Shown here: piece after piece, positions 9,499 to 56,528 of the stretch | Position numbering within the stretch: position 1 is the first letter of the stretch | Layout: every line of letters begins with the position of its first letter | Assembly (NCBI GenBank): GCA_045660545.1 | Contig: JAZREA010000021.1 | Span: 86,503-150,502 of the forward strand | Length of the DNA: 64,000 nucleotides | Direction: 5' to 3' | Source: Clostridia bacterium | GTDB lineage: Bacteria; Bacillota; Clostridia; Monoglobales; Firm-18 | Position numbers and translations under genes: made by a program | Notes under the pieces: generated by a model | Database searches by the model: none | What the model was told of the DNA's origin: nothing | The model's input: the letters and a program-made list of their open reading frames with translations, nothing else

Positions 9499-9645
9499 AA
9501 ATCGACAAGATTCGATAAGAGTCTTGTCGATTTTACTTTTCACCTATTCACTCTTCACTATTCACTAAGATTGAACTTGTCGATTTGAAGTAATAAGTAA
9601 TATGTAACAGTGAAGAAGTGAGGTGCAAAATCGCAAGCGATTTTG
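9499..9645 (+). repeat. tRNA-trailer repeat, copy after tRNA-Pro
   Basis: Colinear along its length with the reverse complement of 56248-56396, which follows tRNA-Arg. Confidence 0.85.
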
Positions 9646-9738
9646 TTTTAGATTTATATTATATAGTTTAAAAATCAAATTAAGAAACCCTTGCTATTAC
9701 TACATTTACAAGTAAATCCTATAAGAACACTCGCACCA

Positions 9739-44014: not shown

Positions 44015-44029
44015 AACGTGCACCCCCAA

Positions 44030-44147
44030 AAATAAAAGTGTGGACAGCCAAAGCTATCCACACACAAATACAAATAAAATTTAAGATTGTGTAACCTAAA
44101 ATGCTAAGCGCGCAAATAGGTGAGAAATTGGATAACTTCTGCTTGCC
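44030..44147 (-). promoter_or_regulatory. L20 leader attenuator
   Basis: AAGCAGAAG...TTCTCACCT motif, then terminator GTGTGGATAGC/GCTGTCCACAC with U-tract. TTGACA-17-TAACCT promoter at 44181-44153. Confidence 0.8.
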
Positions 44148-44291
44148 ATAATAGGTTAACACACGAATAAGCTTTTGTCAAGGGTTTTTAATAAAAAATT
44201 TTTCACTTTTATTGACAACTTATATCGCGATTGATTTTAGCCTTAAAGTATGTTAGAATATTTAACACAAGCTTTTTAGGAGGTGGCCGGT

Positions 44292-54967: not shown

Positions 54968-55111
54968 AAAAATTCCTCCCTTTTTCTTTACTTTTATAAT
55001 TAAGTATATTATAATAAAAAAAGCAGAATCGTGCAACTATATTTGCAATATTTCTCAAATTTAGATAAATTTTGTAAAAAATATGCTCAAATGAGCAAAA
55101 AGGAGCCAATT

Positions 55112-55861
55112 ATGCTTAAATCCGAAAGACAAAATCAAATATGCACCATACTAACGGAAAGACAGTTTATAACAGTAAAAGAGCTTAGCGAAAAGCTTTT
55201 TATCAGCGAATCGAGCGTGCGAAGAGACCTGGCGTCATTAGAACGCGACGGTTTTTTAAAGAGGAGCCACGGCGGAGCAAGCGTTATTAAGTCGCACGAG
55301 CTTGTCGTGCCTTTCGAGGTCCGCGCACACAAAAACATCACGGCGAAGCAGATTATCGCCAAAAAGGCCGTAAACCTTATAAACAACGGAAACGTAGTTT
55401 TTTTAGACCAGACTTCCACTTCCTTCTTTTTGGCGACGGAAATATTAAAATCTAAATCCGTAACCGTAGTAACCAACAACCGCGAAATACTCAACCTGCT
55501 TGCAGGAAGTGATTTAAACGTCATATTCACCGGCGGTGTGGTAAGCAAGTATAACAAAAACTGCCTCGTCGGCCAAAGCACGCAAAAATGCTTTGAGGAC
55601 ATTTACGCCGACATCGCATTTTTCTCTGTTAAGTCTCTATCGTCAGACGGTGTTATTACCGACTGCTCTCAGGAAGAGGTGTTTGTACGAAGGGCAATGC
55701 TCGACTCCGCTGACAAAAAGGTCTTCCTTTGCGATTCGTCCAAAATAGGCAGCCGCTCTTCTTATAAACAGTGCACCCTAAATGACGTCGACTATCTTAT
55801 TTCCGACAACGAGGCAATCACGAGTTACCACTCATTATTCCCCAGGCTTGAGATTATATAA
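55112..55861 (+). CDS. DeoR/GlpR family regulator, divergent from the Ldh_2 gene
   Basis: ISESSVRRDL, RSHGGA, FLDQTST, VTNN, TGG, CDSSKIG. ATG at 55112 after AAGGAG. Confidence 0.92.
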   Translation: MLKSERQNQICTILTERQFITVKELSEKLFISESSVRRDLASLERDGFLKRSHGGASVIKSHELVVPFEVRAHKNITAKQIIAKKAVNLINNGNVVFLDQTSTSFFLATEILKSKSVTVVTNNREILNLLAGSDLNVIFTGGVVSKYNKNCLVGQSTQKCFEDIYADIAFFSVKSLSSDGVITDCSQEEVFVRRAMLDSADKKVFLCDSSKIGSRSSYKQCTLNDVDYLISDNEAITSYHSLFPRLEII

Positions 55862-55863
55862 TT

Positions 55864-55895
55864 AAAACGACAAGGTTATAAGACCTTGTCGTTTT
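55864..55895. terminator. Bidirectional terminator between DeoR and the small ORF
   Basis: AAAACGACAAGGT-tataag-ACCTTGTCGTTTT. Confidence 0.82.
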
Positions 55896-56034
55896 CGTTT
55901 TTTAATAATTCCTCTTCCTTTTCTGCGAAACTAAGATAAATTTCTTCTGTTCTTTTTTGCGCATCACACAAAATTTCCACCGCCTCAGTAACAGAATTAA
56001 ACAGTTCAAAGTACATAGCTTTATAATCCGGCAT
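55876..56034 (-). CDS. Small 52-aa helical protein (below the ORF-track cutoff)
   Basis: AAGGAG, 7 nt, then ATG. Translation MPDYKAMYFELFNSVTEAVEILCDAQKRTEEIYLSFAEKEEELLKNENDKVL*. Confidence 0.75.
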   Translation of the reverse strand: MPDYKAMYFELFNSVTEAVEILCDAQKRTEEIYLSFAEKEEELLKNENDKVL

Positions 56035-56050
56035 AATGTTTCTCCTTTAT

Positions 56051-56203
56051 AAATAAAAAGTGCGCAGCTAAAAGCTACGCACGAAAAATGCATAGCCTCA
56101 ATGCTGCGACACATCTTTTACGCCATAAGGTGCAAAAATAGAGGATGCATTTTTACCAATATAAAATGCACCTACTATGGCTAAAATATTCAGATGTGTC
56201 GCA
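56051..56203 (-). ncRNA. Candidate ~150-nt structured leader/sRNA
   Basis: Promoter TTGCAA-17-TATACT (56237-56209), 12-bp outer stem 56192-56203/56105-56116, inner stems, and a terminator at 56051-56082. Confidence 0.62.
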
Positions 56204-56247
56204 AACACAGTATAACATACGCACAAATAAATTGCAATAAAAAAATA

Positions 56248-56396
56248 AGCTTTGCTTTCGCAAAGCTACCTTAACCTATTTCTTATTCACTATTACCTAT
56301 TACTTCCAAAAAATCGACATGTGTTTTTAGGGAATAGTGAAGGGTGAATAGTTAATAAGTAAAATCGACAAGATTCTATCGAACCTTGTCGATTTT
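56248..56396 (-). repeat. tRNA-trailer repeat, copy after tRNA-Arg
   Basis: Homologous to 9499-9645. Starts immediately after the tRNA CCA and ends in a GC-GAAA-GC hairpin with U-tract. Confidence 0.85.
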
Positions 56397-56471
56397 TGGC
56401 ACCCCCGACCGGAATCGAACCGATGACTAACCCTTAGGAGGGGCTTGTAATATCCTCTTTACTACAGGGGC
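56397..56471 (-). tRNA. tRNA-Arg(CCT)
   Basis: AGCCC-CT-CCT-AA-GGGTT anticodon arm, GGTTCGATTCC T-loop, GCCA. Promoter TTGACA-17-TAAAAT at 56532-56504. Confidence 0.94.
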
Positions 56472-56528
56472 AGGTGCTCGGGCAATAGCGCCCGACGAAT
56501 TATATTTTAAAGTAATATGGCATATTTG

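What the first reader, a model, noticed from the sequence alone, without database searches (positions are those of the whole stretch)
56051..56237. Promoter, ~150-nt structured RNA, terminator, small ORF: candidate new riboregulator or RNA-peptide module
Seen on the minus strand: TTGCAA-17-TATACT puts the TSS at about 56203, exactly where a perfect 12-bp stem begins (UGCGACACAUCU/AGAUGUGUCGCA). Inside are UUUUAGCCAUA/UAUGGCGUAAAA and AGGUGCA, which can pair with either UGCACCU (56134-56128) or UGCAUCCU (56149-56142), so two folds are mutually exclusive. Then comes the terminator GUGCGUAGC/GCUGCGCAC with U-tract (56082-56051), ending just before the RBS of the 52-aa ORF. I do not recognise a known riboswitch class. 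Inference: either an attenuator or riboswitch gating the peptide, or a stand-alone sRNA co-inherited with it (toxin-antitoxin-like). This is the best candidate here for an undescribed system.
Basis: partly seen in the sequence, partly recalled or inferred. Interest (0 to 1): 0.72.

Follow-up and report, generated by a model that had tools for sequence, protein, structure and literature searches.

The report
Widespread uncatalogued switch-like leader RNA
The flagged stretch is one copy of a very common but uncatalogued RNA element of gut and rumen Clostridia that has its own promoter and can fold in two exclusive ways, one stopping transcription and one letting it run into the next gene; what flips it is unknown.

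Summary
On the minus strand there is an extended -10 promoter, a ~155-nt RNA starting with a perfect 12-bp stem, an intrinsic terminator, an RBS and a 52-aa ORF.

It is not a singleton. It belongs to a large family absent from Rfam 15:
- 3 copies in this genome.
- Hits in 115 of 151 genomes of the order, up to 19 or more copies each.
- Hits in 121 of 399 sampled Clostridia genomes (59 of 217 genera).

Covariation strongly supports P1, P2, P3 and the terminator. The apical AAAAAUGCAUNCUCU pairs with the 3' linker GGAGCUAUGCAUUUUU (pseudoknot). That same linker can instead pair with the terminator's 5' arm (antiterminator).

In 52% of copies a start codon lies 8-25 nt past the U-tract. The downstream genes are heterogeneous: small unknown proteins, surface proteins and regulators.

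Best reading: a bistable transcription attenuator with an unknown trigger. The peptide is only one cargo; it is acidic, predicted as a single helix, and not toxin-like. Transcription could not be tested.

The parts
56209..56237 (-). Sigma-70-type promoter: -35 TTGCAA (56237-56232), 17-nt spacer, extended -10 TGtTATACT (56217-56209). The predicted TSS is about 56204-56201.
   Evidence: Sequence and promoter scan. Across 109 family copies the -35 TTG is 95/88/74% conserved and TGnTATAnT is 83-95% conserved, at a fixed distance from P1. The TSS was not tested experimentally.
56051..56203 (-). The whole leader RNA (about 153 nt), from the P1 5' end to the end of the terminator U-tract.
   Evidence: MFE -60.7 kcal/mol, z = -7.35. 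Covariance models R1 and R2 score it 201 and 170 bits. No Rfam match.
56192..56203 (-). P1 5' arm UGCGACACAUCU. It pairs with 56105-56116.
   Evidence: 11 of 12 P1 pairs show compensatory changes in 103 distinct members, and 97.8% of cells are paired.
56105..56116 (-). P1 3' arm AGAUGUGUCGCA.
56182..56191 (-). Asymmetric internal loop J1/2, GAAUAUUUUA, holding the conserved AAUA. Opposite it lies GUAAA (56117-56121). It is a possible hinge.
   Evidence: A16 and A18 are conserved at 90% or more in alignment A4. The hinge role is inference.
56176..56181 (-). P2 5' arm GCCAUA. It pairs with UAUGGC (56122-56127).
   Evidence: 6 of 6 pairs show compensatory changes.
56163..56173 (-). Segment a, AGGUGCA+UUUU. 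It is the 5' arm of P3 (pairing with c, 56128-56134) and also the 5' arm of the alternative a:b hairpin (pairing with 56142-56153).
   Evidence: P3: 7 of 7 pairs compensatory. The a:b hairpin is the MFE of the nascent 66-78-nt RNA and folds with z<-2 in 97% of members. Cognate a:b duplexes beat non-cognate ones in 90% of members, p=2.6e-13.
56140..56154 (-). Segment b, AAAAAUGCAUCCUCU. It pairs either with a (a:b hairpin) or with the 3' linker (pseudoknot).
   Evidence: Pseudoknot: 95.4% of cells paired in A4. In the pattern-independent set A3, 91.2% are paired against 36-64% when slid. Cognate beats non-cognate in 82% of members, p=2.5e-11. The duplex in the window copy is -15.0 kcal/mol.
56128..56134 (-). 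Segment c, UGCACCU, the 3' arm of P3.
56084..56099 (-). Linker/d, GAGGCUAUGCAUUUUU. It is the 3' strand of the pseudoknot, and its part 56089-56097 is also the 5' strand of the antiterminator.
56073..56097 (-). Antiterminator hairpin: GGCUAUGCA (56097-56089), loop UUUUUCG, UGCGUAGCU (56081-56073). 9 bp, -11.5 kcal/mol.
   Evidence: It is the MFE of the nascent 133-nt RNA. 90.5% of cells are paired in A4, against 12-58% when slid, and 31 double-change cells are seen against 13.5±5.1 expected. In A3, 88.9% are paired. Cognate beats non-cognate in 77% of members, p=1.4e-7.
56051..56082 (-). Intrinsic terminator: stem 56082-56073 with 56069-56060, loop UUU, U-tract UUUUUAUUU (56059-56051).
   Evidence: Terminator scan. 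99.2% of cells paired and 6 of 9 pairs compensatory. -16.7 kcal/mol.
55876..56046 (-). RBS AGGAG (56046-56042) and a 52-aa ORF (ATG 56034, stop 55876): MPDYKAMYFELFNSVTEAVEILCDAQKRTEEIYLSFAEKEEELLKNENDKVL. This is the cargo of this copy.
   Evidence: ORF list. Paralogues follow both other copies in this genome. Homologues exist, unnamed. No Pfam, PHROG or NCBIfam family matches. AlphaFold predicts a single helix over residues 4-51, pLDDT 90.
55864..55895 (.). Bidirectional terminator shared by the 52-aa ORF and the convergent DeoR-family gene (55031-55861, + strand). The ORF's last codons and its stop lie inside it.
56397..56471 (-). tRNA-Arg(CCT) immediately upstream. This is context, not part of the RNA.

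Best explanation
The element is a self-contained transcription unit. It has a strong sigma-A-type promoter, a bistable leader RNA and an intrinsic terminator, placed directly in front of a cargo gene. It acts in cis as a transcription attenuator.

OFF state. The 5' part forms a rod (P1-P2-P3, with P3 = a:c). This frees the apical segment b (AAAAAUGCAUCCUCU) to form a ~14-15-bp pseudoknot with the 3' linker (GAGGCUAUGCAUUUUU). With the linker sequestered, the terminator forms and a ~153-nt RNA is released.

ON state. Segment a stays paired with b in the a:b hairpin, which is the first structure able to form during transcription. The linker is then free to pair with the terminator's 5' arm (the antiterminator). 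RNA polymerase reads through into the RBS and the 52-aa ORF.

Shown here: all five helices exist, they exclude one another, and they are conserved or covary across the family; the two states are energetically balanced in the folding model; the unit abuts a cargo gene.

Inferred: that the balance is set by a trans-acting signal (a protein, a small molecule, an RNA, or transcription kinetics). That signal is not identified.

The released RNA may also have a function of its own, because cargo-less copies are conserved.
For: Family and novelty
- 3 copies in the own genome.
- 115 of 151 genomes of the order, 1 to 19 or more copies each.
- 121 of 399 Clostridia genomes, in 59 of 217 genera.
- No Rfam family matches, and no paper in the library holds the conserved sequence strings in a relevant context.

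Structure
- Nested helices plus pseudoknot: 96.1% of cells paired against 78.6% in shuffles, and 35 of 49 pairs carry double changes.
- G·U outnumbers A·C 322 to 32 in the nested helices, so selection acts on the RNA of this strand.

Switch
- Pseudoknot, antiterminator and a:b each show cognate-specific complementarity: 82%, 77% and 90% of members, p from 1e-7 to 1e-13. Six control segment pairs stay near 50% (41-60%).
- The pseudoknot and antiterminator results hold in a set not chosen by sequence pattern.
- Rod state versus a:b state: ΔΔG 0.3±3.2 kcal/mol over 98 members. Terminator -14.6 versus antiterminator -14.9.
- Nascent-chain MFEs of the window copy go a:b, then rod, then antiterminator, then terminator.

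Cis architecture
- The promoter is position-conserved.
- 75 of 103 copies have a same-strand ORF of at least 40 aa with an RBS starting within 150 nt, and 54 of 103 start 8-25 nt after the U-tract.
- The terminator stem sequence is itself conserved although P1-P3 drift freely. This is expected if its 5' arm has a second partner.
Against: - There is no transcript evidence. The organism is absent from the sequencing runs that could be reached, and the only clear RNA run was inconclusive.
- Antiterminator covariation is modest, because both strands are highly conserved.
- The fixed-column test of a:b is no better than shuffles. Only register-free tests support that helix.
- About a quarter of copies have no adjacent cargo: tandem arrays, and orphans kept at syntenic loci. 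A purely cis role does not explain these.
- The energies ignore pseudoknot topology. The pseudoknot needs a bent rod, which has not been modelled.
- The cognate-versus-non-cognate tests count related sequences, not independent events.
- The trigger is unknown.
Confidence: 0.65

Rival explanations
1. Stand-alone trans-acting small RNA. The ~153-nt terminated transcript is the functional product, for example a regulator or a protein sponge. Read-through into the next gene is incidental.
For: - Every copy has its own promoter and a strong terminator.
- About a quarter of copies have no adjacent cargo, and there are 8 tandem pairs.
- Orphan copies at apparently orthologous loci of two species (L034 and L037, same convergent gene downstream) differ by compensatory changes in P1.
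- The b and linker segments are almost the same in all copies. Non-cognate duplexes average -14.35 against -15.75 kcal/mol for cognate ones, so pairing in trans is feasible.
Against: - The start codon lies 8-25 nt after the U-tract in 54 of 103 copies.
- A conserved antiterminator and balanced alternative states have no use in a constitutively terminated sRNA.
- No target could be proposed.
Confidence: 0.15
2. Small-molecule riboswitch of a new class. The rod plus pseudoknot is an aptamer whose ligand (perhaps a global signal such as a nucleotide second messenger) stabilises the OFF or the ON fold.
For: - Conserved unpaired nucleotides: AAUA in J1/2, GG before b, and AGCAAUC in the linker.
- A pseudoknot coupled to a terminator, as in several riboswitch classes (established knowledge).
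- Isoenergetic states.
- Many copies per genome in front of surface and regulatory genes, which resembles second-messenger regulons. This last point is from memory and is a lead only.
Against: - The cargo has no metabolic or transport theme.
- Most of the conserved nucleotides are accounted for by multi-partner base pairing rather than by a pocket.
- No ligand can be inferred, and none was tested.
Confidence: 0.2
3. Protein-operated attenuator. An RNA-binding protein binds one of the sequence-conserved hairpins (the antiterminator with its UUUUUCG loop, the a:b hairpin, or the P1 base) and sets the state, as PyrR, LicT or TRAP do. This is a sub-case of the best explanation that names the trigger.
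For: - P1's base, b, the linker and the antiterminator are conserved in sequence, not only in pairing.
- The cargo is heterogeneous, which suits a global regulator.
Against: - No candidate protein was found.
- No copy was seen in front of a recognisable RNA-binding regulator.
- Multi-partner pairing alone can explain the sequence conservation.
Confidence: 0.25
4. Selfish or passively duplicated DNA repeat (a MITE-like palindrome or 'mobile promoter' cassette) with no RNA-level function.
For: - Multi-copy, in front of unrelated genes.
- Enriched just downstream of tRNA and tmRNA genes: 3 of 3 copies in this genome and about 8 of 45 loci elsewhere.
- A few copies lie on viral contigs.
Against: - Copies are old (about 75% identity within this genome) yet keep every helix through compensatory changes.
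- G·U outnumbers A·C 10 to 1, which shows strand-specific RNA selection.
- The non-palindromic long-range pairings covary.
- Promoter, terminator and RBS stay in register.
Confidence: 0.03
5. Type I toxin-antitoxin-like RNA-peptide module.
For: A small ORF sits next to a structured RNA, and both are inherited together in all 3 copies of this genome.
Against: - The peptide is strongly acidic, has no hydrophobic segment (sequence), and is predicted as one soluble helix.
- The RNA is on the same strand upstream, not antisense.
- The same RNA precedes about 60 unrelated cargo genes.
Confidence: 0.02

Closest known systems
Transcription-terminating riboswitches whose pseudoknot strand competes with the expression platform (for example ZTP/pfl, preQ1-I, fluoride). 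Recalled from established literature, not aligned here.
   Same: A 5' structured domain closes through a long-range pseudoknot. The pseudoknot's 3' strand lies immediately upstream of an intrinsic terminator, so forming the pseudoknot decides between antiterminator and terminator. The RBS follows the terminator.
   Different: - No Rfam riboswitch model matches.
- No ligand is known.
- The cargo genes share no pathway.
- The domain is a long rod with an internal competitor hairpin (a:b), and the pseudoknot is unusually long at 14-15 bp.
- The promoter is part of the conserved unit.
Three-tier protein-dependent attenuators of Bacillota (PyrR-controlled pyr leaders: anti-antiterminator, antiterminator, terminator).
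   Same: The logic is a chain of mutually exclusive helices. An upstream structure sequesters the antiterminator's 5' strand, which lets the terminator form.
   Different: - Here the anti-antiterminator is a loop-to-tail pseudoknot, itself gated by a further competitor (a:b against a:c).
- No PyrR-type binding loop was recognised by Rfam.
- No regulator gene is linked.
- The family has tens of copies per genome in front of unrelated genes.
T-box leaders (RF00230)
   Same: Both are found in Bacillota and Clostridia. Both have a long 5' stem, a conserved antiterminator competing with a terminator, and many copies per genome.
   Different: - The T-box model does not match any copy, although it finds genuine T-boxes in the same loci.
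- The cargo is not aminoacyl-tRNA synthetases or amino-acid genes.
- No specifier loop or T-box bulge was identified.
Putative mobile promoters and repeated 5' regulatory cassettes in front of non-homologous genes.
   Same: A homologous promoter plus leader recurs upstream of unrelated genes within one genome.
   Different: The copies are ancient and diverged, and they are held by RNA-structure selection. They carry a complete terminator/antiterminator switch, not just a promoter.

Membership tests
Any Rfam 15 family | A score at or above the family's gathering threshold against its covariance model. | tested here: not met
   Whole window at gathering threshold: only tRNAs and the L20 leader. 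Region 55800-56520 at E<=10: only chance-level hits, namely MIR2119 at 25.8 bits against 73 and freshwater-2 at 23.6 against 49.9. In 20 related loci at gathering threshold, no hit overlaps a family copy.
Riboswitch (as a kind) | A conserved structured domain with covariation, located in a 5' leader. | tested here: met
Riboswitch (as a kind) | An expression platform with mutually exclusive terminator and antiterminator coupled to the sensor domain. | tested here: met
   The antiterminator covariation is modest.
Riboswitch (as a kind) | Direct, specific binding of a small-molecule ligand. | not testable with these tools
   Needs in-line probing or ITC. No candidate ligand could be inferred.
Riboswitch (as a kind) | Downstream genes share a pathway that points to the ligand. 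| tested here: not met
   Among the 46 cargo proteins scanned, no Pfam family occurs in more than 3 members. The families seen are LRR_5, HTH_3, Zn ribbon, fn3, YpsA and others.
Protein-dependent attenuator (PyrR/LicT/TRAP type) | Alternative anti-antiterminator, antiterminator and terminator structures. | tested here: met
Protein-dependent attenuator (PyrR/LicT/TRAP type) | An identified RNA-binding regulator and its binding motif. | not tested
   No candidate protein emerged, and no phylogenetic profiling was done.
T-box leader | A match to RF00230, with specifier loop and T-box sequence, upstream of amino-acid-related genes. | tested here: not met
   RF00230 finds true T-boxes at L037:4629-4868 and L045:2274-2504 but not the family copies in those loci. 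The cargo is unrelated.
Type I toxin-antitoxin | A small hydrophobic or membrane toxin peptide. | tested here: not met
   The peptide has 14 acidic and 6 basic residues and no hydrophobic stretch. It is predicted as a single amphipathic helix.
Type I toxin-antitoxin | An antisense or overlapping RNA antitoxin. | tested here: not met
   The RNA is upstream on the same strand and is separated from the ORF by a terminator.
MITE/REP-like DNA repeat | DNA-level palindrome symmetry without strand-specific RNA constraints. | tested here: not met
   G·U against A·C is 322 to 32 in the nested helices and 165 to 20 in the pseudoknot. Non-palindromic long-range pairings covary. Target-site duplications were not examined.

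The most novel reading that the evidence does not exclude
The family is a new class of global sensor. In one version it is a riboswitch for a signal not tied to any one pathway, such as a nucleotide second messenger or a growth-state cue. In another version it is an RNA-only network.

The RNA-only idea rests on the near-identity of the b and linker segments in all copies of a genome (non-cognate duplex -14.35 against cognate -15.75 kcal/mol). The abundant terminated leaders, and the conserved cargo-less copies, could then invade nascent sister leaders in trans. This would set termination for the whole set of up to 19 or more accessory genes at once.
Probability: 0.15. Interest if true: 0.88.

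Novelty: new variant of a known kind. Interest (0 to 1): 0.7.

Why it matters
If the reading is right, this is one of the most abundant regulatory RNA families of gut and rumen Clostridia. It occurs in about 30% of sampled genomes of the class, with up to 19 or more copies per genome. It has no Rfam entry and no description that I could find.

It controls a large set of accessory genes whose regulation is otherwise unknown: surface proteins, small unknown proteins and transcription regulators.

Its five-helix, two-layer design is an unusually clear natural example of an energetically balanced co-transcriptional switch. A competitor hairpin gates a pseudoknot, and the pseudoknot gates an antiterminator. 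Finding its trigger would reveal either a new riboswitch ligand, a new RNA-binding regulator, or RNA-RNA cross-talk.

There is also a practical consequence. Public gene calls run small ORFs upstream through the terminator of this element, so annotating it would correct them.

Tried and rejected
- Rfam: gathering and E<=10 scans of the window, and a gathering scan of 20 related loci, found nothing relevant.
- Literature: a full-text search for six conserved sequence strings gave only chance hits in unrelated papers. Keyword searches and two discovery papers (PMC8040213, PMC8632094) gave no matching named motif. The element may still be among unnamed candidates in supplementary tables, which I did not read.
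- RNA-seq: no run holds this organism. Runs X11 and X25-X29 hold only relatives' copies, and at least one contig carries promoter DNA, so they are probably DNA. A search restricted to 'RNA-Seq' libraries gave nothing. One real RNA run (X30), tried with a rumen relative, had only fragments of other copies, some continuing past the terminator; this is inconclusive because DNA carry-over is possible.
- Fixed-column covariation for the a:b helix is no better than shuffles, because its register varies between members. I replaced it with register-free duplex and folding tests.
- P1 3' arm against terminator 3' arm: the pairing potential is high (-11 kcal/mol) but it does not clearly covary (p=0.03, and 0.21 in the unbiased subset). 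I did not adopt it.
- Phage origin: only 2 INPHARED records and 7 IMG/VR contigs carry it.
- Peptide function: Pfam, PHROGs and NCBIfam found nothing, and homologues are unnamed. The model is a single helix, so a fold search would be meaningless and I did not run it.
- Gut-1 RNA as the identity of the upstream repeat: rejected. The Gut-1 hit in L031 is not similar in sequence to the window's element.
Full report
**1. The observation**

- Promoter: -35 TTGCAA (56237-56232), a 17-nt spacer, and an extended -10 TGtTATACT (56217-56209). The consensus scan reports it as well.
- P1: a perfect 12-bp stem, UGCGACACAUCU (56203-56192) with AGAUGUGUCGCA (56116-56105), starting about 6 nt after the -10 box.
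- P2: GCCAUA with UAUGGC.
- AGGUGCA (56173-56167), which can pair with UGCACCU (56134-56128) or with UGCAUCCU (56149-56142).
- A 10-bp GC-rich terminator with a U-tract (56082-56051).
- AGGAG at 56046-56042 and the ATG of a 52-aa ORF at 56034.

The 161-nt RNA folds at -60.7 kcal/mol. Dinucleotide shuffles average -34.5±3.6 (z = -7.35; none of 200 does as well). A tRNA-Arg(CCT) lies just upstream at 56397-56471.

**2. It is a family, and it is not catalogued**

No Rfam 15 model matches the window at the gathering threshold. The region at E<=10 gives only chance hits to plant miRNA models and to freshwater-2.

A DNA search of the window's own genome found two more copies, on contigs C13 and C14. 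Each is followed by a paralogue of the small ORF. Relatives hold many more.

I built a covariance model from the window copy and its closest relative with a hand-set structure (R1). I used it to align 34 hits structurally (A3) and rebuilt the model (R2). With R2:
- the own genome has exactly 3 copies;
- 121 of 399 genomes sampled across the class have it, in 59 of 217 genera.

A pattern scan of the species-representative collection hit more than 119 contigs. Nearly all are gut or rumen MAGs labelled Clostridia, Eubacteriales, Acutalibacteraceae, Oscillospiraceae or Ruminococcaceae.

A gathering-threshold Rfam scan of 20 member loci found tRNAs, T-boxes, THF, glycine, Gut-1 and skipping-rope RNAs nearby, but nothing overlapping a family copy. 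Full-text searches for six conserved sequence strings, and several keyword searches, found no description. The element is rare in phage collections: 2 records and 7 contigs.

**3. Secondary structure**

I worked on 105 aligned members (A4; 103 distinct). The nested helices plus pseudoknot are paired in 96.1% of cells, against 78.6% in column shuffles and 32-56% when partners are slid. 35 of 49 pairs show changes on both sides.

Per helix:
- P1: 11 of 12 pairs compensatory.
- P2: 6 of 6.
- P3: 7 of 7.
- Terminator: 6 of 9.

G·U pairs outnumber A·C mismatches 322 to 32, so selection acts on the RNA of this strand and not on a DNA palindrome. The model-fitted alignment leans somewhat towards this result.

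The three copies inside this one genome already illustrate the pattern. P1-P3 differ by compensatory changes while the switch segments stay fixed.

**4.

(i) Pseudoknot. The apical segment b, AAAAAUGCAUCCUCU (56154-56140), is complementary to the 3' linker GAGGCUAUGCAUUUUU (56099-56084). The duplex is -15.0 kcal/mol.
- Across the family this pairing is kept in 95.4% of cells.
- In A3, the set not chosen by sequence pattern, it is kept in 91.2% of cells, against 36-64% when slid. There are 12 double-change cells against 5.2±1.8 expected.
- Examples seen directly in the sequences: AAAAACGC with GCGUUUUU in L034, L040 and L046, and CCUC/GAGG against GCUCU/GGAGC.

(ii) Antiterminator. The same linker (GGCUAUGCA, 56097-56089) pairs over 9 bp with the terminator's 5' arm (UGCGUAGCU, 56081-56073) across a UUUUUCG loop. 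This costs -11.5 kcal/mol, against -16.7 for the terminator.
- It is kept in 90.5% of cells in A4 and 88.9% in A3, against 12-60% when slid.
- Covariation is modest but above the shuffles.

The terminator stem is itself sequence-conserved, unlike P1-P3. That is what a second partner for its 5' arm would produce.

**5.

Segment a can pair with c (giving P3) or with b (giving the a:b hairpin). Because the register of a:b varies between members, a fixed-column count is uninformative. Three other results support it.
- The a-to-b stretch folds into a near-perfect 13-18-bp stem-loop with z<-2 in 97% of members.
- A register-free test compares duplex energy of a member's own two segments with that of segments from other members. 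Own segments are better in 90% of members for a:b (p=2.6e-13), 82% for the pseudoknot (p=2.5e-11) and 77% for the antiterminator (p=1.4e-7).
- In the same test the known helices score 95-100%, and six control segment pairs score 41-60%. The results hold in the 34 members not chosen by pattern.

This test counts related sequences rather than independent events, so the p-values overstate the evidence. The direction is nevertheless consistent in every test.

**6. Bistability**

With b forced single-stranded (rod/P3 state) or c forced single-stranded (a:b state), the 5' domain has the same predicted energy. ΔΔG is 0.3±3.2 kcal/mol over 98 members, and 78% lie within ±4.

The 3' part scores -14.6 kcal/mol with the terminator and -14.9 with the antiterminator. 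The pseudoknot duplex averages -14.5.

For the window copy, the MFE structures of growing transcripts run in this order:
- a:b hairpin at 66-78 nt;
- rod at 101 nt;
- antiterminator at 133 nt;
- terminator at 146 nt.

The logic is therefore as follows. If a:c displaces a:b in time, b captures the linker and the terminator forms (OFF). If a:b persists, the linker forms the antiterminator (ON). These are nearest-neighbour model results that ignore pseudoknot topology. By my estimate the pseudoknot needs the rod to bend, perhaps at the conserved AAUA bulge. That is inference.

**7. Cis architecture and cargo**

The promoter is conserved in sequence and in position in 109 copies: -35 TTG at 95/88/74%, and TGnTATAnT at 83-95%, ending about 5-7 nt before P1.

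Of 103 copies with at least 300 nt of downstream sequence:
- 75 have a same-strand ORF of at least 40 aa with an RBS starting within 150 nt;
- 54 start 8-25 nt after the modelled U-tract;
- 8 are followed by another copy in tandem;
- the remainder have no adjacent cargo.

The cargo is heterogeneous. It includes BspA-type LRR, RCC1, fn3 and SLH surface proteins, XRE and AbrB regulators, zinc-ribbon membrane proteins, YpsA/SLOG proteins, an AMP-binding enzyme, and many small proteins of unknown family. 34 of 75 are 100 aa or shorter, and 27 of the 41 longer ones have a signal- or TM-like N-terminus.

The window's peptide family (Y..LFN..T.A...L..AQ...EE.Y) is the most frequent cargo, at about 8 of 75, and it is the cargo of all three copies in this genome. 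It has no Pfam, PHROG or NCBIfam match and only unnamed homologues. It is acidic and is predicted as one long helix (pLDDT 90). That does not fit a type I toxin.

**8. What remains open**

Transcription could not be checked. No reachable sequencing run holds this organism, and the relatives' data were inconclusive.

The trigger is unknown. The gene context argues against a pathway-specific metabolite. A global small-molecule signal, an RNA-binding protein, transcription kinetics, or cross-talk between copies all remain possible.

Cargo-less copies are kept at what look like orthologous loci with compensatory changes (L034 and L037). Tandem arrays also exist. Together these suggest that the released RNA may have a role of its own.

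**9. Relation to earlier notes of this scan**

Other windows had been flagged with the same architecture, and two follow-up notes called it an uncatalogued attenuator family. I treated these as leads.

One phrase, 'pseudoknot 3' strand shared with the antiterminator', prompted me to look for the antiterminator. I then tested it myself. I had found the pseudoknot, the family and the covariation before that look-up.

**10. Verdict**

This is a real, highly structured element under strong selection. It is best read as a new family of bistable transcription-attenuating leader RNA with its own promoter. It is widespread in gut and rumen Clostridia, and its trigger is unknown.

The peptide is one cargo among many.

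Noticed in passing
window 56240-56399 (-) and window 9498-9650 (+): A second, unrelated multi-copy structured element directly follows tRNA genes (tRNA-Arg 56397-56471, and the tRNA at 9422-9495).

Its layout is a 16-bp terminator-like hairpin (AAAAUCGACAAG...CUUGUCGAUUUU), then a ~70-nt imperfect hairpin built of UUCAC repeats facing GUGAA repeats, then a second terminator. It folds with z = -7.2 and -6.4.

About 6 copies occur in this genome (C2, C12, C14, C16, C21 twice) and many in relatives. It has no Rfam match and it is not Gut-1.
   Followed up: partly
G000 C13 (L029:3304-4055), C14 (L030:2773-3313), window 56051-56471; also L031, L033, L055, L058, L075: Copies of the leader RNA are enriched just downstream of tRNA or tmRNA genes on the same strand. 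This holds for all 3 copies in this genome and for about 8 of 45 loci elsewhere; my rough estimate of the chance expectation is about 2%.

In this genome the unit that was duplicated is the 3' part of the tRNA-trailing element, then the leader, then the small ORF, at about 75% identity.
   Followed up: partly
L034:2453-2615, L037:2024-2182, L063/L064/L066/L067, L071, L077; tandems in L038, L042, L052, L067, L073, L079: A subgroup has P1 GCGACUCAG/CUGAGUCGC and a shortened linker (AUCA-GAGUC). These copies have no downstream ORF and face a convergent gene. They recur in many genomes of one genus.

Other copies form tandem arrays of 2-3. Both observations suggest that the released RNA has a function of its own.
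   Followed up: partly
P0003, P0010, P0012, P0013 (homologues of the 52-aa ORF): Public gene calls extend the small ORF upstream through the terminator and linker of the leader (N-terminal '...HFSVRGFGCALFIYKGE...'). These are almost certainly mis-called starts.
   Followed up: no
window 55864-55895: The last codons and the stop of the 52-aa ORF lie inside a 14-bp bidirectional terminator shared with the convergent DeoR-family gene (55031-55861). The C-termini of the paralogues differ accordingly.
   Followed up: no
window 56105-56116 plus AGC, versus 56060-56082: P1's 3' arm plus AGC (GUGUCGCAGC) resembles the terminator's 5' arm (GUGCGUAGC), and P1's 5' arm resembles the terminator's 3' arm. 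The P1-3' to terminator-3' duplex averages -11 kcal/mol across the family but does not clearly covary. Nearly all switch segments are built from UGCR units.
   Followed up: partly
L031:2308-2375; L043:1530-1629: Known orphan RNAs sit close upstream of family copies in relatives: Gut-1 (RF01706, 52.8 bits) between a tRNA-Gly and the leader, and skipping-rope RNA (RF02924) about 470 nt upstream of another copy.
   Followed up: no
window 44026-44150 (-): A ribosomal protein L20 leader (RF00558, 63.9 bits). It is ordinary and fits a Bacillota/Clostridia genome.
   Followed up: no
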